Part shown: positions 2,490 to 10,217 of the stretch, piece after piece | How positions within the stretch are numbered: the stretch's first letter is position 1 | Layout: each line of letters opens with the position of its first letter | IMG/VR virus record: IMGVR_UViG_2703719355_000003 | Reading direction: 5' to 3' (one strand) | Origin: a virus | Lineage: Duplodnaviria > Heunggongvirae > Uroviricota > Caudoviricetes | Length of the DNA: 12,404 nucleotides | Notes under the pieces: generated by a model | What the model saw: the letters and a program-made list of their open reading frames with translations, nothing else | Told to the model about the DNA's origin: nothing | The model's database searches: none | Made by a program: the position numbers and the translations under genes

Positions 2490-3034
2490 GCCTCCATCGC
2501 TTTATCCGGTTTGTCGGTGTTACTGCCCTGACCGTTCTCTCTGTGACGATGGCCGTTATAGGCAAGCCGCATCGCTGACATGGTGGTGCCGCCGGAGTCG
2601 CACAGGTCTTTCACCTGTCCGGTCACTTCCAGGTCCATTTCAAAACGCGCTTTAGGTGAATTGCGAAACGTGATTGTTTTACCTGCACCGTCCACCACGA
2701 TCCCCTCTCGGGTCAGCGTCACGGACTGCCCCTGATCGTCATAGACAGCCACCTCACCCGTCTGCAGCCCTTTCAGGCGGTAGCGCCGGTCCGACACCGT
2801 AACAACCACCGCATGAGAACGGTCGCCATCCGGAAACAACACCACCGCTTCCGCACCGCTGTTTGCCCTTGCGGTAAAACCGTAGGGTTCAAGATGTTCA
2901 ACCCCGGCTTTGGGTTCACCGGCAATCAGGGACACATCCACGGTCTGACATTTCGTGGCGGCACTGATGCTTTTCACCACGGCCCGCCCAATCAGGCCGA
3001 GGAGTTGTCGCTGCATGGCTTCAATCGTCCTCAT
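2486..3034 (-). CDS. Baseplate assembly/spike protein V-like (Mu gp45/Q-like)
   Basis: 182-aa ORF; starts ATGAGG, sharing TGATG with the upstream stop, with AGGAGG just upstream; synteny. Confidence 0.7.
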   Translation of the reverse strand: MRTIEAMQRQLLGLIGRAVVKSISAATKCQTVDVSLIAGEPKAGVEHLEPYGFTARANSGAEAVVLFPDGDRSHAVVVTVSDRRYRLKGLQTGEVAVYDDQGQSVTLTREGIVVDGAGKTITFRNSPKARFEMDLEVTGQVKDLCDSGGTTMSAMRLAYNGHRHRENGQGSNTDKPDKAMEA

Positions 3035-4113
3035 CAGAACGGGTCCTCCTGTACTCTGGCTTTTTTCTTTTTCCGCGCGCCGGGGACTTCGGGTTCAGGC
3101 AGATAAGCATCAGGTGGGCCGACACGGATTTCCGTCAGGGTGCCGTTCTGGTCCTGAGTAAACGTGACTTCCGAAACAAGCAGTTCGGTATTGTCGAAAC
3201 CACAGACCGGATCAAAGACAATCACCCGCTGGTTGGGCTGCCACAGCGTACCGTTACCCTGTCGCCAGCCCTGCACCACATAGGTGGTTTCATCCGTCCG
3301 CGCCGCCCGTTGTCTGGCTTCAAAGTCCGCACGGGCAATACAGCCTGCCCCCGTAGCCTGCCCTGTCTGCCTGATATACATCGGACGGTAACGGGCAATA
3401 AATGCGTCCTCTGTGCGGGCCCGCAGCGCGGTGGTGGTGGCCTCACCGAAATCATCGTCGTTTCCGGCACGCTGCCCCGCCACCTGGTAAACAGAAAACC
3501 GCTCCCGGATACTCTTCTCCGTATCGCAGGAAAGGATGTTTTCCCCGAGTACCAGCGCAGTATGTGCCCGCGTTGAGCCAATACCGCCAATCACCAGCCT
3601 GCCGTGCGGGTCGTCGTAAGCCAGTGCCTGCTGCTGACCGAGTATTTTGTTGATTACCTCAATCACCGTTTCACCGTGATCAGGCTGAACATCAGGAATA
3701 ACACCCGACGGCGCACCGCTGTTCACCACCTCAATGCCGAAAGGCGCAGCAAGCGCCTGCGCAATCTGCACCAGCGAGCGTCCGTTAAACTGTGTCGGTT
3801 CGGCTGCACAGTCAATCAGGTCAGCCGTCAGACTACGTCCGGCAATACCGGTGCTGACCGAACGGGCATCGTAACGAACGGGAGTCGCCTCCACCCAGCC
3901 GGTGATCACCAGCTCATCACCAATCAGCACTTCCACTTTTGAACCGTTTTTAATGCGCGGCTGAAGCGTGGTGATACCCTCATCTCCCGGCCACTGGCGA
4001 GTGATCTCCACACTGAAATCCCGCGCCAGCCGTTCAATACCGGCACCGATGCGCACCGATGTCCAGCCATTCCACTCCCGGCCATTTACCCGTAGCGTGA
4101 CATTGTCGTTCAT
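3034..4113 (-). CDS. Tail/baseplate hub protein, Mu gp44 (P)-like (P2 gpD-like)
   Basis: 359-aa ORF; ATGA overlap with the N-like gene; synteny and size close to Mu P as recalled. Confidence 0.7.
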   Translation of the reverse strand: MNDNVTLRVNGREWNGWTSVRIGAGIERLARDFSVEITRQWPGDEGITTLQPRIKNGSKVEVLIGDELVITGWVEATPVRYDARSVSTGIAGRSLTADLIDCAAEPTQFNGRSLVQIAQALAAPFGIEVVNSGAPSGVIPDVQPDHGETVIEVINKILGQQQALAYDDPHGRLVIGGIGSTRAHTALVLGENILSCDTEKSIRERFSVYQVAGQRAGNDDDFGEATTTALRARTEDAFIARYRPMYIRQTGQATGAGCIARADFEARQRAARTDETTYVVQGWRQGNGTLWQPNQRVIVFDPVCGFDNTELLVSEVTFTQDQNGTLTEIRVGPPDAYLPEPEVPGARKKKKARVQEDPF

Positions 4114-5438
4114 TGCACTGGCACCTTCAGAGGGATCACCGGCACAAAGCCGGGATGCGTAATGGCATTACGCCGGATAATGTCCGCGTCACGCGCCGCG
4201 TTATCAAACCAGGTCGCCGCCAGCACCAGCGCGGGTAAAACCTCATCCGGTGTGCGCTGAATGATCCGTGCAGACTGTTCAAGGCGCGTGTTGATATCCG
4301 CATTCAGATCTGCTTTCACCCGGCGCAGCGCCAGAAACAGCGCATCGCTGGTTGTACGGGACAACTCCTTATCAATTGCCGTATTCAGTGTGTCGCGAAT
4401 GTCAGTCAGTTCTTCCCACGTCGGCAGGTCAACCGTGTTTTTCACCGCCGGTGCATTGTTCAGTGCCGGATGCGTGACGGAAGGCCAGCCAGTGCTCTGC
4501 GCGGGTGTTGTTGCCTGCCCCACTGCGGCATTCTGCATCACCGCGGAAGTTGTTGGCGCAGGCAATCGGGTGACGGCATACGCCGCTTCGCTGATTGCGG
4601 TCGTACGAAGGGTGCTGGCAACCACGTTACGCTGCTGCGTCGCCGTGGCGGTGGTTTTACTGTCCGTTTTCCAGACGCCGCGCGGTTGCAGATCGCTGCC
4701 GAGGCTGACACCGGAAAGCGTTTTGATCATGGTGACCAGGTCGCTGGCGTTACCATAAAGGCGTTTCCCGGTACGCCACATTTTCTGCACCTGCTCAACG
4801 AAATTTTTTCCTGACGATGGCGGCGGCAGAAGTACCGAGATATCCCCCTGCAACAGCCTGGCGGCATCCGATACGGCAGAATCCACCACTTTCATCGCAT
4901 CAGAAACATACCCCAGCATTATGCTGGCATTACCGATAACGTCGTTCTGCACGAAATCCGCCACACCATCGATACTGAAACCGCTGAAGCTGTCACTGAT
5001 GCAGTCATCCAGTGCAGAACAGGATGACATCAGCGTCTGCGCCGTCGCCGCACCTGATGTGGGGTAAGAGAGTTCTCCTGCTTCGACAAACTTCAGGTCA
5101 AAGCGGACAATACGCCCTTCACTTTTCGATGTGCTGACCCGAACTTCCCCGTCAACACAGACTTTCAGCTCACCATATGTCGGGTGGACAAGCGTGCCGG
5201 GACCGGGTTTATTCAGCGCTTCAATCAGGCGATCGCGCTGGTCAAAGCAGTCATCTCCCACCACATAAGCTGTGATGGACGGGCGGAAAGTGACTTTTCC
5301 CAGATCTTCGGTATAGGGCTTGTCGCGGTTCGGATATTCGTGTGTTTCCACACGGCGACCGGTTCCCGCACTTTCTTCTTCAACCTTAAACGGTACGCCG
5401 CGAAATGACGCATCCTGAAGCCTGTCTTTCCACGTCAT
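4110..5438 (-). CDS. DNA circularisation protein N-like (Mu gp43-like)
   Basis: 442-aa ORF beginning MTWKDRLQDASFRGVPF...; GGAG 5 nt upstream of the ATG at 5438; synteny immediately downstream of the tape-measure region. Confidence 0.7.
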   Translation of the reverse strand: MTWKDRLQDASFRGVPFKVEEESAGTGRRVETHEYPNRDKPYTEDLGKVTFRPSITAYVVGDDCFDQRDRLIEALNKPGPGTLVHPTYGELKVCVDGEVRVSTSKSEGRIVRFDLKFVEAGELSYPTSGAATAQTLMSSCSALDDCISDSFSGFSIDGVADFVQNDVIGNASIMLGYVSDAMKVVDSAVSDAARLLQGDISVLLPPPSSGKNFVEQVQKMWRTGKRLYGNASDLVTMIKTLSGVSLGSDLQPRGVWKTDSKTTATATQQRNVVASTLRTTAISEAAYAVTRLPAPTTSAVMQNAAVGQATTPAQSTGWPSVTHPALNNAPAVKNTVDLPTWEELTDIRDTLNTAIDKELSRTTSDALFLALRRVKADLNADINTRLEQSARIIQRTPDEVLPALVLAATWFDNAARDADIIRRNAITHPGFVPVIPLKVPVQ

Positions 5439-5453
5439 ATAAACTCCGGATAC

Positions 5454-5508
5454 AAAAAAACCGCCAAATCTGCTTTGTCAGTTATTTACATCGCAGAAGA
5501 TGTGGCGG
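5454..5508 (-). terminator. Rho-independent terminator downstream of the moron gene
   Basis: On the minus strand, an imperfect GC-rich hairpin (CCCGCCACATCTTCTGCG ... GCAGATTTGGCGG; + coords 5461-5508) is followed directly by TTTTTTT (+ coords 5454-5460). It lies 21 bp after the moron stop and 16 bp before the N-like start. Confidence 0.55.
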
Positions 5509-5528
5509 GAATCTAATATTTTTAATTA

Positions 5529-5978
5529 CTATCTGAGTTGAACATCAATGGAATAAACATCACCACTCTTTATAAATTTAGAATCTGTCCTTTCATCAAA
5601 AGATTCAAATGACTGTACCTTTAAAAACTTTTTCATTTTATTTTCAAAAATACTTTCATTAACACCAGTTAAATACTTGAACGCTCTACCAGTAAGGACC
5701 TCATTACTTAAATCCATTGTGTTTTTATTGTCTTTGAAAAACCAAACAATAACCTTTTGTGGGCATGATGGATTATAAACAGATATATAAAACTGCGGCT
5801 CATATTTTTCATCAGCGTCATCACTAAGCATTTCTTCAGAAGATAATTCTCTTCTGAATTCATATTGCCGCTTAGTTATTCCTTCATCCTTTATTATCTC
5901 TTGCTTAACTGGTGCAATACCTATAGAAGAGATTAATTCTGACTCATTAAAGCTGAACTTACACTCTTCCGCAGCCAA
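5529..5978 (-). CDS. Hypothetical low-GC protein (moron); likely secreted; 5' end frameshifted. As given, the ORF has only a TTG start and no RBS; the probable true start is the ATG at 6022 in another frame
   Basis: 149-aa ORF in strongly AT-rich DNA. The in-frame upstream sequence encodes ...FFISALLSFNLAA-EEC (signal-peptide-like with an AXA-type cleavage motif) but has no ATG. The ATG at 6022, with GAAGGG 6 nt upstream, is in a different frame and terminates at 5933. One extra T in the T7 run (+ strand A7, 6003-6009) would fuse them into MRIFVFFISALLSFNLAAEECKF... (about 164 aa). No motif I can assign. Confidence 0.55.
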   Translation of the reverse strand: MAAEECKFSFNESELISSIGIAPVKQEIIKDEGITKRQYEFRRELSSEEMLSDDADEKYEPQFYISVYNPSCPQKVIVWFFKDNKNTMDLSNEVLTGRAFKYLTGVNESIFENKMKKFLKVQSFESFDERTDSKFIKSGDVYSIDVQLR

Positions 5979-6022
5979 GTTAAAAGATAAAAGTGCAGAT
6001 ATAAAAAAACAAAGATACGCAT
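5933..6022 (-). pseudogene. Out-of-frame 5' fragment (signal-peptide region) of the moron gene, 29 codons
   Basis: ATG 6022 with RBS-like GAAGGG; hydrophobic MRIFVFLYLHFYLLTWLRK...; frame diverges from the main ORF at the A7/T7 tract 6003-6009. Confidence 0.4.
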
Positions 6023-6052
6023 AATCATCCCTTCAATCATTTGTAAGGAATG

Positions 6053-6082
6053 ATTATATTAACTACTTAAAGCTGAAAACCC
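6053..6082 (-). promoter_or_regulatory. Candidate sigma70-type promoter for the moron gene
   Basis: Perfect TATAAT on the minus strand (+ coords 6053-6058), 30 nt upstream of the ATG at 6022; the -35 is weak (TTTTCA-like); AT-rich upstream. Located in the gap after the tape-measure stop. Confidence 0.3.
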
Positions 6083-6121
6083 AAATTATGCCAGACAAAA
6101 ACACATTAATCATTTTGTACA

Positions 6122-7954
6122 CTACCTGAACCGCGTATAGCCAACATCATGGCTGACATCAAAACCGCTGGATCGCGTTTCCATAACCCGCATACCCGGA
6201 GGCGAATTCACAAAAGAGACCTTGATCTCACCATCAACTTTTGGCGCAGAAGCTTTGTTAATCATGAAGGGATTCGGGCCTGTGGCATCGGAGGCGTTGT
6301 TTGACTGAGCCGGATCTACCGCCGGATAAGGTGTGTATCCCCGTGCCGGTATTCCCGTCCCATAAGCATCATAAGCACCCGCCCCCCACTGCGCCGAGTT
6401 AATGGCATCGACCGTGTCACCGGAACTGTCGGTAAACCACTCAATAATTGGCTTCAGCTTGTCCCACATATCCTGAAACCACTTAACAACCGGCCCCCAG
6501 TTATTGATCACCATCCCCAGCGGCGACCAGGCAAAAACTTTCTTAAGGAGTTCCCAGCCAGTCTCAAAATAAGGACCAATGGTTTCCCAGAGTTTCTTAA
6601 AATAAGGTCCGACAACATCCCAGTTAGTGATAATTAATCCCGCAGCCAGGGCTATCGCCGTCGCAATCATGCCAATCGGCGTCATCGACATGAGCCTGCT
6701 GACAATACTGATGGCACTGCCAACGCCCATCAATCCCAGTTTCAGAATCGCAAGACCGGCAGCAAGCCCGACGACGCCGCGAATAACCCGGGGATTTTCA
6801 TCCGCAAACTTCGTGAATTTTTCCCCCAACTCCCCCAGCCATTGCGTGATATTTTTGGCGTCACCAGAAAATGCGCCGCCAATAGCCGCAAGGCCGTTAG
6901 TTGCGGTCCCCGTCATTGCCTCCCACAGGTTGGACAGCGTACCAAGCTGGGCCTGAACACGTTTATTCAGGCTGGCCTGTTTATTCATCTTCTGCTGGAT
7001 CTGATCGTAGCCATCCTTTCCTTTATCGATTAGTGCATTGACCACCTGAAGGGTTTCGGCATCATCACCAAATATTGCCTTAAGTACACCTGTCCGCTTA
7101 ACGTCGGTCAGTTTTCGCAGCTTTGCCAGTTGCCTGAACATGTTATCAAGACCGCCAAAACTTCCTTTGCCGTCAGTAAAATCGAGCTGTACCCCGAGTT
7201 TCTGGCGGGCCATGATTTTATTGACGTCCCTGATTTTCTTAACGCTTAATCCGGACTGGATAACTTTTCGCAGGGCATTACCTGCCGACTCCCCGTTCAT
7301 CCCCATCTGATCCATCATGACGCTGATGGGGGCAAGGCTCTGTGCAGCCTGAAGACCGTCCTTGTTCACCATCTTCAGAACAGAACTGGTTTTAGTGAAG
7401 AAGGACAACATGTTGGTATCGTCAACGCCCAGATAAAACGCCTTCTGGATAGTGTCGAACAGCCCCATCATGTCTTCTGACGCCGTTCCGGTAGCATCCT
7501 GCATCTTTGCAGCAAACTCAGCAGCCGCTTCCGGTGTTTTTTTCAGTTGTACCGCAAGATAAGCTGTCGCTTTACCCACACCGCCAAGAATGTTTTCTGC
7601 CGGGATCCCCTGACGCACCAGCATCTGCATCATGTTCTGGAAATCAGCCGTTGTACCGGGAAGCTGGTTACCCAGGCCAATAGCCAGTTTATTGATGTCC
7701 TGAAAGCGCTTTCCAACCTCGCCATTCGCATCCATCATGGCGACTTTCAGCCCGGTGGCGGCGTTTTCCTGATCGGCATAAGATTTCAGGGAAAGCGTCA
7801 GACCCGCTGCCAGTCCGCCACCAAGCGCCAGCCCACCCTGTGACGCTTCTTCCGCCTGGCGTTTAAATCCCCGTATTTTCTTTTGCATTTTCGACAGCGC
7901 GGGAGAAAGCCTGTCGACACCGGTGATCAACGCCTTAAGCTCAAATTCAGCCAT
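6122..7954 (-). CDS. Tail tape measure protein (Mu gp42/Y-like)
   Basis: 610-aa ORF directly downstream of the tube and chaperone genes; Gly/Ala-rich with a long hydrophobic segment (...VVGLAAGLAILKLGLMGVGSAISIVSRLMSMTPIGMIATAIALAAGLIITNW...) typical of tape-measure proteins; GGAG upstream of the start. Confidence 0.85.
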   Translation of the reverse strand: MAEFELKALITGVDRLSPALSKMQKKIRGFKRQAEEASQGGLALGGGLAAGLTLSLKSYADQENAATGLKVAMMDANGEVGKRFQDINKLAIGLGNQLPGTTADFQNMMQMLVRQGIPAENILGGVGKATAYLAVQLKKTPEAAAEFAAKMQDATGTASEDMMGLFDTIQKAFYLGVDDTNMLSFFTKTSSVLKMVNKDGLQAAQSLAPISVMMDQMGMNGESAGNALRKVIQSGLSVKKIRDVNKIMARQKLGVQLDFTDGKGSFGGLDNMFRQLAKLRKLTDVKRTGVLKAIFGDDAETLQVVNALIDKGKDGYDQIQQKMNKQASLNKRVQAQLGTLSNLWEAMTGTATNGLAAIGGAFSGDAKNITQWLGELGEKFTKFADENPRVIRGVVGLAAGLAILKLGLMGVGSAISIVSRLMSMTPIGMIATAIALAAGLIITNWDVVGPYFKKLWETIGPYFETGWELLKKVFAWSPLGMVINNWGPVVKWFQDMWDKLKPIIEWFTDSSGDTVDAINSAQWGAGAYDAYGTGIPARGYTPYPAVDPAQSNNASDATGPNPFMINKASAPKVDGEIKVSFVNSPPGMRVMETRSSGFDVSHDVGYTRFR

Positions 7955-8365
7955 GTGTGCGTTTCTCCTGCTCTATCCTGTTTGCCTGACTGACCAGCAA
8001 GGGAATTTCACTGATCGGCATATTCAGCAATTCGAAAGGATTAATGCGCCAGTAGCTGGCGCAATCAAAGAAGCGATCAGTAAGGTATTCAGCCGTCAGG
8101 CCTGGAGGAAAAAACCAGCCACAAGCCACGCCGCTGCATTCAGGTCTGCCGGAGACATCTGGTCGACAGAGCTTTGCGGCACTTTCGCCAGCCGCACAAT
8201 ATATTTCGATACCACATGCGCCAGAAGTCTGACGGACTCATCCTGATTCATCTGGTAGGGATACCCCAGCTCGCGGACATCTTTCCCGGTGGGCTCATCA
8301 AACTCCAGTACGGAGAGTGTCTCGCCATGAGCGGTAATCGGTTTCTTTAACTCAAGCTCTTTCAT
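7947..8365 (-). CDS. Tail assembly chaperone, predicted -1 frameshift fusion product (G/GT-type)
   Basis: The -1 frame is open from the slippery heptamer (+ coords 8108-8114) to a TGA at 7947, 7 bp before the tape-measure ATG; this layout is the conserved tail-chaperone frameshift known from dsDNA phages. Confidence 0.5.
8096..8365 (-). CDS. Tail assembly chaperone (Mu gp41-like), frame-0 product
   Basis: 89-aa ORF between the tube and tape-measure genes; shares TAATG with the tube gene; ends 3 codons after a T-TTT-TTC slippery heptamer. Confidence 0.65.
   Translation of the reverse strand: MKELELKKPITAHGETLSVLEFDEPTGKDVRELGYPYQMNQDESVRLLAHVVSKYIVRLAKVPQSSVDQMSPADLNAAAWLVAGFFLQA
8108..8114 (-). 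other. Programmed -1 ribosomal frameshift slippery heptamer (U UUU UUC)
   Basis: Minus-strand T TTT TTC in X XXY YYZ register relative to the chaperone frame; the -1 frame continues for about 55 codons. Confidence 0.5.
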
Positions 8366-8721
8366 TACTGGTAATCCCCTTCTTCACCGTGGAACTCAAG
8401 ATCGACCGTGCCTTCTTCGGCATTATGGTTCGCTTCGCCGTGCAGCCAGGCGGACGACAGTACATAGACCTGACCGTTCGCCAGCTCGGCAGTGATTGTC
8501 ATCTCATCAGACGAGGTGATTTTGCCCACCGGAAAATTCTTCGGCACCTTGAAGGTCCCTTTGACATAAGGCGCACGGTGAGTTTCCTTGCGGTCCACTG
8601 AACCGTCCAGGCCGATGATGTCATCATTAACCATCCTGTTCATGGGCACCTCAATGCCGCCGGTCAGCGATAGCTGCTGACCGTCAATTTTGAAATAACA
8701 GGTTCCCCCGATACGGGCCAT
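8365..8721 (-). CDS. Tail tube protein (Mu gp40/M-like)
   Basis: 118-aa ORF immediately downstream of the sheath gene with TAATG stop/start overlap; size and position match the Mu tube protein as recalled. Confidence 0.8.
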   Translation of the reverse strand: MARIGGTCYFKIDGQQLSLTGGIEVPMNRMVNDDIIGLDGSVDRKETHRAPYVKGTFKVPKNFPVGKITSSDEMTITAELANGQVYVLSSAWLHGEANHNAEEGTVDLEFHGEEGDYQ

Positions 8722-10217
8722 TATGCAGACTCCTCTGAATACTGAAGACGAAACTGGTTAACCACGGCAAAGACACGCAACTGGTTAACATAGTCAGGCG
8801 GGAACAGCGTGTTCAGGCGGTTCGGATCGCTGGCATCACGCTCCACAACCAGGTACTGCTTAAAAAGTTCGTAGTTTTCCACGATCCCCGCACGCTCAAG
8901 CTGACGGTAGGTTGCCAGCAGTTCCCCTTTGATCACCGCCGGGGTGACAATCGCCTGACCGGGACCAAAGCGGGTACCGTCGCTGGCAAGCTTGTGACGC
9001 CCGTACTTACTGGTAATGACGGATTTCAGTTTGCGCAGTACATACGCACTGGTATGCAGCGTCTCGCTGTCGAGGTAGCTGTTATCCGCAACCCCGTAAG
9101 CGTTTTTCCTGTACGTGGTGACATCACGCTGAATGCGCAGTACCCCGCTTTCGACATACGCCGTTGCCACGCCATGAGACAGCAGGGTCTGTTGTTCGGT
9201 CATCGTGAACCGTTTCCCCTTCGGCGCAGACAGCATACCCACCAGCTCACCGGTCTGCGTGGGACGTGCCGGATCGTTGCGGATAAACACCGCTGCGCGG
9301 GCGGTACGGCTTGCCGCCAGCTCGTCGGCAGGCGTCTGGGTGTCTTTTTCGTACCCCGCCAGGGTAATGTGCTGCTGGTTAAACTGGTCACCTGCGGTCA
9401 CCAGTTCTGACAGCGTGCCGATCTTTGCCGTATACACATGACCATACAGCTGACGCGCATAGCTCCAGCGACCGCTGGTATCGTTCATCTCGGTCACCAG
9501 CGTGTTAACGGAGGCCGTGTCGTTGAACGGCAGGCCGATATAATCAAACGGCTCATCCGCCATTGCAGCCACCGCGCCGGTGAGAACCGGAGCACCCGTA
9601 CCGGCGGTACCCGTCGCCACGGCAATCTGTACGCCCGCTGGCAGCACTTCGCCCCCACCAAAGCCGTAGTAATTGAGGCTGACAGGAATTTCATTCCCGC
9701 AAAGCCCCTTATGACGCGCGGTCAGTGTGACCACGCCTGCCGAAGATGAAGCCGTAAACGGCAGGGCCGGAACGGCATTGATGGCATCTTTGATACTGCT
9801 GGCAATCGTCGTGACGTTATCGCCGTTGGTCACCGGAGCCTGCACGCGGGTACGTCCCACATAAACATTCACCGTGCCGGTTTCGGTTGCCGCGCCGGTC
9901 ACCGTCAGCGTAACTGTTGCCGCCGCGCCCGTGGATTCAGGAACGGCAATCACATACAGTTCACCAAACGGGTCGGTCTGGCGATAAGCCTCGACCATAC
10001 GCGCCAGCTGACTTCCCGCACCACAAATCTGGCGTGCATAGTCTGCCGATGGCATCAGCACCAGACTGTTGGCAACAATCTCTGCACCGTTATTGGCATG
10101 ACCAATCAGCAGCGATGCTCCGCTGTCCTGTGCAGTATTCGCCGCCTGGTTATCCATTTCCGCATAAAAAATCGGAACCAGCGTATTCGACGGAATGGTG
10201 TTAAAGCTTATCGTCAT
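8721..10217 (-). CDS. Contractile tail sheath protein (Mu gp39/L-like)
   Basis: 498-aa ORF; size close to Mu L as recalled; followed by the tube gene; N-terminus MTISFNTIPSNTLVPIFYAEMDN... is sheath-like. Confidence 0.85.
   Translation of the reverse strand: MTISFNTIPSNTLVPIFYAEMDNQAANTAQDSGASLLIGHANNGAEIVANSLVLMPSADYARQICGAGSQLARMVEAYRQTDPFGELYVIAVPESTGAAATVTLTVTGAATETGTVNVYVGRTRVQAPVTNGDNVTTIASSIKDAINAVPALPFTASSSAGVVTLTARHKGLCGNEIPVSLNYYGFGGGEVLPAGVQIAVATGTAGTGAPVLTGAVAAMADEPFDYIGLPFNDTASVNTLVTEMNDTSGRWSYARQLYGHVYTAKIGTLSELVTAGDQFNQQHITLAGYEKDTQTPADELAASRTARAAVFIRNDPARPTQTGELVGMLSAPKGKRFTMTEQQTLLSHGVATAYVESGVLRIQRDVTTYRKNAYGVADNSYLDSETLHTSAYVLRKLKSVITSKYGRHKLASDGTRFGPGQAIVTPAVIKGELLATYRQLERAGIVENYELFKQYLVVERDASDPNRLNTLFPPDYVNQLRVFAVVNQFRLQYSEESA

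What the first reader, a model, noticed from the sequence alone, without database searches (positions are those of the whole stretch)
5439..6121. AT-rich moron between the tape-measure and N-like genes encodes an unrecognised, probably secreted protein
The flanking late genes are GC-rich and packed with start/stop overlaps, but this ~680 bp block is strongly AT-rich (by eye ~30% GC) and sits exactly where Mu has Y and N adjacent (from memory). It looks like a self-contained cassette: a perfect TATAAT (6058..6053), an RBS and ATG, one gene, then a clean hairpin plus U7 terminator (5508..5454). Once the frame is corrected the product is about 164 aa with a classical signal peptide (MRIFVFFISALLSFNLAA/EEC), two cysteines in the mature part and no motif I can place. 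Cargo of this kind in prophage structural operons is typically lysogenic-conversion, superinfection-exclusion or anti-phage defence, but the actual function here is unknown. This is my best candidate for something undescribed in the window.
Basis: partly seen in the sequence, partly recalled or inferred. Interest (0 to 1): 0.8.

Follow-up and report, generated by a model that had tools for sequence, protein, structure and literature searches.

The report
Broken exported-protein gene in tail-gene hotspot
Between two tail genes of an SfV/Mu-tailed prophage lies an AT-rich accessory gene for a small exported protein of unknown function; it sits in a slot where related phages carry other envelope proteins, one of them labelled as blocking superinfection, and the copy in this window is broken by a one-base deletion.

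Summary
The AT-rich block is real: 31% GC against 55% elsewhere, z = -6.3. It lies between the tape-measure gene (PF10145) and the N-like gene (PF07157).

It encodes a 164-aa protein with a Sec signal peptide and two conserved cysteines. In this window the gene is frameshifted. A T8 run is T7 at 6003-6009, so translation from ATG 6022 stops after 29 codons. None of 85 complete E. coli genomes, and none of the IMG/VR copies where the run could be read, has T7.

The family (PHROG 8976, RefSeq "hypothetical protein") is tiny and confined to Enterobacterales. It has no Pfam, NCBIfam or PADLOC match. A confident AlphaFold model has no solved structural relative.

All phage-borne homologues located, down to 28% identity, occupy this same slot and have diverged in step with N and the tape measure.

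Near-identical phages have the slot empty or filled with unrelated AT-rich cargo. Most of that cargo is envelope-targeted, and one type matches a "superinfection exclusion Sie-like" PHROG.

The "own terminator" is a conserved hairpin that cargo-less SfII also has. The "promoter" is a lone TATAAT.

Best guess (about 0.4): a periplasmic superinfection-exclusion factor, inactivated here.

The parts
6122..7954 (-). Tape-measure protein gene (610 aa). It forms the upstream border of the slot.
   Evidence: Pfam PF10145, E = 6.7e-27. 98.5% identical to the SKA5 'tape measure protein Mup42'.
6100..6121 (-). Short spacer after the tape-measure gene that cargo-less SfII also has (AAAATGATTAATGTGTT-like).
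   Evidence: Local alignment of window against SfII scores 19; 0 of 500 shuffles reach that score. See also alignment A1.
5511..6099 (-). Cargo-specific AT-rich DNA, absent from SfII, SfV and SfI.
   Evidence: GC is 31%.
6053..6058 (-). TATAAT, a lone -10-like hexamer and only a candidate promoter element.
   Evidence: Read. Invariant in 9 E. coli-type alleles. It has no -35 hexamer, and the promoter scan finds 0 sites.
6028..6033 (-). Ribosome-binding site AAGGGA, 5 nt upstream of the ATG.
   Evidence: Sequence read.
5933..6022 (-). The reading frame as it stands in this window: ATG at 6022, 29 codons, then a stop (MRIFVFLYLHFYLLTWLRKSVSSALMSQN*).
   Evidence: Translation.
6003..6009 (-). T7 homopolymer, the site of the -1 frameshift. 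Intact alleles have T8.
   Evidence: None of 85 E. coli genomes is 100% identical across this site. All 7 IMG/VR copies where the run could be read have T8.
5529..6002 (-). Remainder of the coding sequence (codons 8-164 plus the TAG stop at 5531..5529). It is in the other frame relative to the ATG.
   Evidence: Translation. 98.8% identical to the SKA5 protein.
5693..5693 (-). Window-specific G-to-A change that turns the family-invariant alanine (LAGRAF) into threonine.
   Evidence: The alanine is A117 of P0001 and is invariant in alignments A2 and A3.
5454..5509 (-). Hairpin plus T-run. It is a variant, with an expanded loop, of a terminator-like element conserved in this slot. The window-specific G-to-T change at 5460 removes the last stem pair.
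   Evidence: Fold: -19.1 kcal/mol, z = -2.4. The same element sits just upstream of the N gene's RBS in SfII and in all 7 cargo-bearing relatives compared (SKA5, five more carrying homologues of this gene, and 720R4 with unrelated cargo). The G-to-T change is shown.
4110..5438 (-). N-like DNA-circularisation / tail protein gene (442 aa), with RBS GGAG at 5447..5444. It forms the downstream border of the slot.
   Evidence: Pfam PF07157, E = 3.7e-34. Sequence read.

Best explanation
Anatomy (shown; confidence about 0.9). The block is an optional accessory gene in a cargo hotspot between the tape-measure gene and the N gene. The host element is an SfV-like temperate phage with a Mu-type contractile tail. 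When intact, the gene encodes a 164-aa precursor: a Sec signal peptide (MR, then about 14 hydrophobic residues, then a small-x-Ala site) and a 146-aa acidic mature protein. The mature protein is 17 kDa with pI 4.9 and has two conserved cysteines, so it is probably a soluble periplasmic protein with one disulfide. The protein is under purifying selection in E. coli. In this window it is inactivated by a 1-base deletion in a T8 run. The only remaining long frame starts after the signal peptide.

Mechanism (inferred; confidence about 0.4). The intact protein would act in the periplasm of the lysogen as a superinfection-exclusion factor. It would interfere with the injection apparatus of incoming related phages. 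The two proteins encoded next to it, the tape measure and N, are the tail components expected to pass through the periplasm during infection.

Expression is unresolved. It could come from a weak promoter of its own or by read-through of the late operon. The conserved hairpin downstream would stop any such transcript from running into N unless the polymerase carries the phage's Q antiterminator.
For: - GC dip and gene borders.
- Frameshift.
- Signal peptide and cysteine pair conserved in every phage-borne member.
- dN/dS of 0.12-0.23 among intact E. coli alleles.
- Accessory status: absent from SfII, SfV and SfI, whose flanks are 98-99% identical at the protein level. Present in 85 of 871 E. 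coli genomes with at least 80% of this window.
- Slot fidelity: homologues at 28-61% identity in eight further lineages all lie between PF10145 and PF07157 genes.
- Co-divergence: pairwise divergence of the protein tracks N (Spearman 0.83) and the tape measure (0.70).
- Faster evolution than the neighbours: mean identity 41%, against 67% and 59%.
- Slot company: among 80 IMG/VR loci whose N is 98-100% identical, the slot has no detected cargo in 44 (35 with the SfII-type spacer). Otherwise it holds unrelated AT-rich cargo. Three of those four other types carry an N-terminal signal or membrane anchor. One of them is PF12869, on the opposite strand, and matches phrog_8545 'superinfection exclusion Sie-like' at E = 1.5e-49.
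- Precedents in the literature: the HK97 gp15 moron lies next to the tape-measure gene and blocks genome entry in a tail-dependent way (PMC3594210). T4 Imm binds the tape-measure protein (bioRxiv 10.64898/2026.03.06.709160).
- These phages use a Q antiterminator: PMC3851460 and the annotation.
Against: - Expression in lysogens is unproven. No full sigma-70 promoter is detected here or in four relatives.
- In three lineages the gene starts only 15-17 bp after the tape-measure stop codon. That arrangement looks like a late-operon gene.
- The 'Sie-like' label of the slot neighbour is a database annotation, not a tested function. One cargo type (bPH_1) is cytoplasmic.
- Export is inferred from sequence features only. 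No SignalP run and no experiment were available.
- The copy in this window cannot perform any periplasmic function as sequenced.
Confidence: 0.4

Rival explanations
1. It is a host-fitness or lysogenic-conversion factor unrelated to phage exclusion. On this reading it is a periplasmic protein that changes envelope physiology, stress tolerance or host interaction, in the way lambda Bor and Lom or prophage SodC do.
For: The gene is AT-rich, optional and encodes an exported product. It is found in commensal, avian-pathogenic and clinical E. coli from many hosts. One stray homologue lies outside any phage, next to an autotransporter gene. Morons are known to have diverse roles (PMC3594210).
Against: All phage-borne homologues located sit in the one slot between the tape-measure and N genes, and their divergence tracks those genes across genera. 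A generic host-benefit gene would not be expected to show that. There is no similarity to any known virulence or fitness family.
Confidence: 0.2
2. It is a late-operon helper made during lytic growth and exported to the periplasm for the phage's own benefit. Possible roles are timing or completeness of lysis, protecting the infected cell from secondary injections, or stopping progeny being wasted on infected cells.
For: In Pantoea phage AH07 and two metagenomic lineages the gene follows the tape-measure stop codon by 15-17 bp, leaving no room for a promoter. No promoter-like site is found on the sense strand in any lineage scanned. The gene has the same orientation as the tail operon. Q-type antitermination would read through the hairpin (PMC3851460).
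Against: It is dispensable, since SfII, SfV and SfI are viable phages without it. The persistently low GC and the interchange with unrelated cargo, including one type on the opposite strand that must have its own promoter, fit prophage-expressed cargo better.
Confidence: 0.2
3. The hydrophobic N-terminus is not a signal peptide, and the protein is a cytoplasmic tail-assembly or virion component specific to this tail type.
For: Its position is fixed inside the tail module and it has diverged in step with its neighbours.
Against: It is absent from close relatives with near-identical tails. All phage-borne members have the n-h-c architecture with a small-x-Ala site, followed by a conserved cysteine pair. 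Unrelated genes can replace it in the slot.
Confidence: 0.05
4. The T7 run is a sequencing or assembly error at a homopolymer, so the gene is really intact in the source organism.
For: The lesion is a single-base length change in a homopolymer. Every other copy examined is in frame.
Against: All other genes in the 12.4-kb window are full length. The same copy carries two further changes not seen in the 8 other alleles compared. One is Ala-to-Thr at one of only 9 family-invariant positions. The other is loss of the last stem pair of the hairpin. Both fit relaxed constraint after a real inactivation. The run is a genuine mutational hotspot, because strain FDN-9 has an in-frame T5.
Confidence: 0.35

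Closest known systems
HK97 gp15, the founding 'moron' and a superinfection-exclusion protein (PMC3594210)
   Same: It is an extra gene with deviant GC inside a tail operon, directly next to the tape-measure gene. Its product is located in the envelope. Its exclusion activity depends on the tail of the incoming phage.
   Different: gp15 is a small inner-membrane protein related to YebO, found in a siphovirus, and lies upstream of the tape-measure gene. The protein here is a 146-aa soluble periplasmic domain lying downstream of the tape-measure gene in a contractile-tail module. There is no sequence or fold similarity, and the function here is untested.
T4 Imm, which binds the tape-measure protein (bioRxiv 10.64898/2026.03.06.709160), and the TP-J34 Ltp type lipoproteins (PMC3952083)
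   Same: They are envelope-located, phage-encoded proteins that block genome delivery. For T4 Imm the reported target is the tape-measure protein. T4 also shows that this happens with contractile tails.
   Different: Imm is a membrane protein of a virulent phage, and Ltp is a lipoprotein of a Gram-positive host. The family here has no lipobox (A-E-[EQ]-C) and no detectable homology to either.
phrog_8545 'superinfection exclusion Sie-like' cargo (PF12869 OB fold with an N-terminal anchor) found in the same slot of sister prophages
   Same: It occupies the same tape-measure-to-N slot, is AT-rich, has similar size and is envelope-targeted.
   Different: The sequence is unrelated. It lies on the opposite strand and is membrane-anchored rather than cleaved and soluble. 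Its Sie label is itself only an annotation.
PHROG 8976 / RefSeq WP_001219112.1 'hypothetical protein'
   Same: This is the same family: E = 1.9e-106 over the full length, and the same gene is annotated in ECOR29.
   Different: That family has no assigned function, and the copy in this window is frameshifted.

Membership tests
Moron (as described in PMC3594210: an extra gene relative to close relatives, deviant GC, its own promoter and terminator, expressed from the repressed prophage) | Present in some phages and absent from close relatives at the same position | tested here: met
   SfII, SfV and SfI lack it although their flanking proteins are 98-99% identical. 44 of 80 loci with near-identical N show no detected cargo.
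Moron | GC content different from the surrounding genes | tested here: met
   31.3% against 55.4%, z = -6.3. The same holds in other genera: 33-40% against 47-57%.
Moron | Its own promoter | tested here: inconclusive
   TATAAT at 6058..6053 is invariant in 9 alleles, but it has no -35 hexamer. The consensus scan finds 0 sites here and none on the sense strand upstream of the gene in 4 relatives. Three lineages have only 15-17 bp upstream of the gene.
Moron | Its own terminator | tested here: inconclusive
   A hairpin plus T-run does follow the gene. The same element sits in front of N in cargo-less SfII and after unrelated cargo, so it belongs to the slot and not to this cassette.
Moron | Expressed from the repressed prophage | not testable with these tools
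   No transcript data were available, and no paper mentions WP_001219112.
Superinfection-exclusion proteins that block genome injection (HK97 gp15, T4 Imm, P22 SieA, Ltp) | Sequence or fold relationship to a characterised member | tested here: not met
Superinfection-exclusion proteins that block genome injection | Located in the cell envelope | tested here: met
   Met by sequence features only. The n-h-c signal peptide with a small-x-Ala site and the conserved cysteine pair occur in all phage-borne members. There was no SignalP run and no experiment.
Superinfection-exclusion proteins that block genome injection | Protects the expressing cell from infection without blocking adsorption | not testable with these tools
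   This needs phage challenge assays.
Phage lipoproteins that mask receptors or block injection (T5 Llp, Cor, Ltp) | A lipobox ([LVI][ASTVI][GAS]C) at the end of the signal peptide | tested here: not met
   The residues before the first cysteine are A-E-E or A-E-Q in nearly all members.
PHROG 8976 | Full-length match to the family profile | tested here: met
   E = 1.9e-106, residues 1-164 on profile positions 1-164, using the frame-corrected sequence.
Phase-variable (contingency) gene switched by a homopolymer tract | On and off tract lengths both common in the population | tested here: not met
   T7 occurs only in this window. None of 85 E. coli genomes is identical across the tract. Of 8 other alleles sampled, 5 have T8, 2 have a synonymously interrupted T6 and 1 has an in-frame T5. 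All 7 IMG/VR copies where the run could be read have T8.

The most novel reading that the evidence does not exclude
The family would be a new class of soluble periplasmic anti-injection proteins with a fold that has no solved relative. Such a protein would bind the tape-measure or N protein of incoming Mu-type contractile-tailed phages. It would have co-evolved with the tape-measure and N genes it sits between. The tape-measure-to-N slot would then be a dedicated exclusion-gene hotspot in SfV-like phages.
Probability: 0.3. Interest if true: 0.6.

Novelty: new member of a known kind. Interest (0 to 1): 0.4.

Why it matters
The finding defines a precise and easily recognised cargo hotspot between the tape-measure and N genes in SfV-like prophages with Mu-type tails. 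Matches covering at least 80% of this tail-module window occur in about 16% of complete E. coli genomes. The hotspot holds at least five unrelated small proteins, four of them envelope-targeted and all uncharacterised.

If these proteins are exclusion factors aimed at the injection machinery, they would be compact tools for studying how contractile-tail phages cross the periplasm. They would also be determinants of phage host range, which matters for phage therapy against E. coli and Shigella.

For this particular window the practical message is more modest. The gene is a catalogued hypothetical protein, and this copy is broken.

Tried and rejected
- **Family libraries.** Pfam, NCBIfam and PADLOC scans of the corrected protein and of all 13 aligned members gave nothing consistent.
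- **Exhaustive profile search.** A search of 1.84 billion representative proteins found only 13 hits. One is a 1766-aa eukaryote-like repeat protein (P0024), matched through 13 short repeats. I treat it as spurious.
- **Second profile search.** It added only more Enterobacterales 'hypothetical proteins'.
- **Alternative cargo phrog_5586.** Profile-profile comparison with this family aligned only the signal peptides, with probability 1.4%. Its AlphaFold model failed with pLDDT 36.6.
- **Insertion or deletion footprint.** A direct repeat flanking the cargo was not significant; 46 of 500 shuffles scored as well.
- **RNA families.** Rfam found nothing meaningful in 5200..6400.
- **Phase variation or programmed slippage at the T run.** Rejected on the population data.
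- **Lipoprotein reading.** Rejected because there is no lipobox.
- **Literature.** No paper mentions the RefSeq accession, and none was found that discusses this slot in SfV, SfII or SfIV. The HK97 gp15 primary paper and the SfV genome paper are not held.
Full report
**1. What the window is**

All genes in the window run on the minus strand. They form the tail module of an SfV-like temperate phage with a Mu-type contractile tail. Pfam identifies the following:
- sheath, 8721..10217
- tube, 8365..8721
- tail assembly chaperone, 8096..8365
- tape-measure protein, 6122..7954 (PF10145)
- a DNA_circ_N protein, 4110..5438 (PF07157)
- a gp44/P-like hub protein, 3034..4113

The closest sequenced phage is Escherichia phage SKA5.

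**2. The observation**

*Composition and gene packing.* The block 5439..6121 has 31.3% GC, against 55.4% for the rest of the window. 300-bp windows inside it average 0.314. Outside they average 0.557 with sd 0.039, which gives z = -6.3. The flanking genes overlap start to stop.

*Signals that are present.* TATAAT lies at 6058..6053. An AAGGGA ribosome-binding site lies at 6033..6028. The ATG is at 6022..6020.

*The reading frame is broken.*
- From that ATG the frame closes after 29 codons, at 5933.
- The rest of the protein, 5529..6002, is in another frame.
- The cause is a run of seven T at 6009..6003. SKA5 has eight.
- The longest intact frame begins at a TTG inside the signal peptide, at 5978. 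It could not give an exported product.

*The hairpin is not clean.* It has a 6-bp outer stem, 5508..5503 paired with 5466..5461. This encloses 36 nt that contain a second 5-bp stem, and T7 follows. The fold is -19.1 kcal/mol with z = -2.4.

*Consensus scans.* The scans call neither a promoter nor this terminator in 5300..6300.

**3. Is the frameshift real?**

- None of the 85 complete E. coli genomes carrying the insert is identical to the window across the T run.
- Eight other alleles fetched in full have T8 (five), a synonymously interrupted GTGT6 (two), or an in-frame T5 that drops one Phe (FDN-9).
- All seven IMG/VR copies where the run could be read have T8.
- The run is therefore a mutational hotspot, but it is not a phase-variation switch.
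- The window copy has two further changes found in none of the eight other alleles.
  - G-to-A at 5693 turns the alanine of LAGRAF into threonine. That alanine is one of only nine positions invariant across the whole family.
  - G-to-T at 5460 removes the last stem pair of the hairpin.
- These changes lean towards a genuine decaying copy. A homopolymer sequencing error cannot be excluded, and I put it at about 0.35.

**4. The protein**

*Sequence features.*
- All phage-borne members start with M-R/K, followed by 11-14 hydrophobic residues and then a small-x-Ala site.
- A conserved [EQ]-C follows the site.
- A second cysteine about 66 residues further on is also conserved.
- There is no lipobox.
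- The mature E. coli protein is 146 aa, 17.1 kDa, with pI 4.9.
- Among intact E. coli alleles dN/dS is 0.12-0.23, so the protein is under purifying selection.

*Structure.* An AlphaFold model built on ten homologues is confident. Mean pLDDT is 86.9, and it exceeds 90 over the mature domain. The fold is alpha+beta with seven strands.

*Similarity searches.*
- A PDB sequence-profile search is empty.
- BFVD gives one viral analogue of unknown function, with TM-score about 0.6.
- Pfam, NCBIfam and PADLOC give nothing. PHROGs places the protein in phrog_8976, of unknown function.
- RefSeq calls it WP_001219112.1, hypothetical protein.

**5. Distribution**

The family is very small. There are 13 clusters from a single-sequence search, 13 representatives in an exhaustive profile search of 1.84 billion proteins, and 26 clusters with a broader profile. 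The named members come from Escherichia, Salmonella, Atlantibacter, Kosakonia, Kluyvera, Cronobacter, Pantoea and Yersinia ruckeri.

**6. Context in relatives**

*Same slot everywhere.* Every phage-borne homologue whose surroundings I could read lies between a PF10145 tape-measure gene and a PF07157 N gene:

| Lineage | Identity to the window protein |
|---|---|
| Kosakonia | 59% |
| a gut metagenome lineage | 61% |
| Atlantibacter | 56% |
| Kluyvera | 60% |
| Pantoea phage AH07 | 42% |
| Two metagenomic lineages | 36% and 28% |
| Yersinia ruckeri | 35% |

*One exception.* A copy at 31% identity has no signal peptide and lies after an autotransporter gene.

*Co-divergence.*
- Across nine lineages the pairwise identity of this protein tracks that of N (Spearman 0.83) and of the tape measure (0.70). 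Those two track each other at 0.81.
- The pairs are not independent, so the p-values are not to be trusted.
- The protein evolves faster than its neighbours: mean identity 41%, against 67% and 59%.
- Its GC stays at 33-40% everywhere, while the flanks are 47-57%.
- The gene is therefore an old companion of this tail module and not a recent random insertion. It has nevertheless not drifted towards the flanks' base composition.

**7. The slot is a cargo hotspot**

SfII, SfV and SfI have flanking proteins 98-99% identical to the window's. They have only a short, roughly 60-bp spacer here.

In complete E. coli genomes, 871 carry at least 80% of the window and 85 carry this insert.

I surveyed 80 IMG/VR loci whose N protein is 98-100% identical to the window's. 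The slot contents were:

| Slot content | Loci | Notes |
|---|---|---|
| No cargo hit | 44 | 35 of these have the SfII-type spacer |
| phrog_5485 | 21 | 176 aa, with an N-terminal membrane anchor |
| This gene (phrog_8976) | 8 | |
| phrog_8545, 'superinfection exclusion Sie-like' (E = 1.5e-49) | 6 | 148 aa, opposite strand, N-terminal anchor, PF12869 OB fold |
| bPH_1 (PF08000) | 1 | cytoplasmic |

Phage vB_EcoM-720R4 and 101 E. coli genomes carry yet another cargo, phrog_5586. It is 162 aa, with a signal peptide and two cysteines. Profile comparison shows no homology between it and this family beyond the signal peptide. All the cargo types are AT-rich, at 33-38% GC.

**8. Promoter and terminator, re-read**

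*The hairpin belongs to the slot.*
- A short GC-rich hairpin followed by a T-run sits directly in front of the N gene's ribosome-binding site in the relatives compared. Its form is ACCCGC-NNNN-GCGGG-T6/7, or a CCCAC variant.
- The relatives include SfII, which has no cargo and whose depositors annotated the element as a terminator.
- The element also follows unrelated same-strand cargo.
- The window's hairpin is therefore a variant of a slot feature, with an expanded loop. It is not something the cassette brought with it.

*No promoter is detectable.*
- No sigma-70-like site is found on the sense strand upstream of the gene in the window or in four relatives.
- In three lineages only 15-17 bp separate the tape-measure stop from the gene's start.
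- The lone TATAAT is invariant among the nine E. coli-type alleles.
- Whether the gene is transcribed in lysogens, or only as part of the Q-antiterminated late operon (PMC3851460), remains open.
- The cargo on the opposite strand must have a promoter of its own.

**9. Mechanism**

*What is shown.*
- The gene is optional, under selection and encodes a protein with an export signal.
- It is fixed between the genes for the two tail proteins expected to cross the periplasm at infection.
- Its slot otherwise hosts mostly envelope proteins, one of them labelled Sie-like.

*What is inferred.* The intact protein would act in the periplasm against the injection machinery of incoming related phages.

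*Precedents.* HK97 gp15 is a moron next to the tape-measure gene that blocks genome entry in a tail-dependent way (PMC3594210). T4 Imm binds the tape-measure protein (bioRxiv 10.64898/2026.03.06.709160).

*How likely.* I give this reading about 0.4. The rivals are a host-fitness factor (0.2), a late-expressed helper of the phage's own cycle (0.2), and a cytoplasmic tail component (0.05).

**10. Verdict**

Five corrections apply:
- The copy here is broken.
- The cassette is not self-contained.
- The family is already catalogued, though without a function.
- The family is a long-standing resident of this exact slot across genera.
- The more interesting result is the slot itself: a hotspot between the tape-measure and N genes holding at least five unrelated small cargo proteins, four of them envelope-targeted.

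Noticed in passing
L032 2908-3438; L046 2943-3389 (minus strand); L107 2978-3436; L012 1881-2369: The same tape-measure-to-N slot in near-identical prophages carries four other unrelated AT-rich cargo genes. They are phrog_5485 (176 aa, membrane-anchored), phrog_8545 'Sie-like' (148 aa, PF12869, opposite strand), a bPH_1 protein (152 aa, cytoplasmic) and phrog_5586 (162 aa, signal peptide, in 101 E. coli genomes).
   Followed up: partly
window 5454-5509; L002 1695-1733; L003 8527-8542; L005 8519-8534; L014 6524-6543; L023 3995-4012: A terminator-like hairpin plus T-run lies immediately upstream of the N gene's ribosome-binding site in the middle of the tail operon. It is conserved across genera and is present even where there is no cargo. 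Its role there (insulating cargo transcripts, setting expression ratios, or stabilising mRNA) is unexplained.
   Followed up: partly
L018 6001-6471: A stray homologue (P0020, 31% identity) lies outside any phage, just after a pertactin-type autotransporter gene and its hairpin. It has no signal peptide, lacks the first conserved cysteine, and is still AT-rich (37% against 52%).
   Followed up: partly
L025 (E. coli FDN-9), start of the gene; L026 and L027: The T run at codons 5-7 varies in the population. FDN-9 has an in-frame T5 (163 aa). Strains 181.1 and K-15KW01 have a synonymous T-to-G that breaks the run to T6.
   Followed up: yes
window 7947-8129 (minus strand): A 60-aa ORF overlaps the 3' end of the tail-assembly-chaperone gene and fills the 141-bp gap before the tape-measure gene. 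A gene was called at the same place in L004. It looks like the frameshift-extension part of a chaperone pair of the G/GT type.
   Followed up: no
H73, E. coli PEC122 NZ_CM168021.1 4438521-4439906; L086 about 1700-2600: Insertion sequences have landed in or next to the slot in some genomes. An IS1 splits the phrog_5586 cargo in PEC122. Transposase-like ORFs sit in the 3' part of the tape-measure gene region in L086.
   Followed up: no
P0024 (1766 aa): A eukaryote-like repeat protein scored E = 1.6e-9 against the family profile through 13 short repeat matches to profile positions 19-63. This is almost certainly a repeat or composition artefact.
   Followed up: partly
BFVD A0A8S5RVB8 (Siphoviridae sp. 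ctLeG9, 180 aa): This is the only structural match to the model: Foldseek E = 3.8e-6, TM-score about 0.6, 13% identity. It is labelled 'ABC transporter periplasmic binding protein', which is implausible for a 180-aa protein. Its sequence and context could not be retrieved.
   Followed up: no
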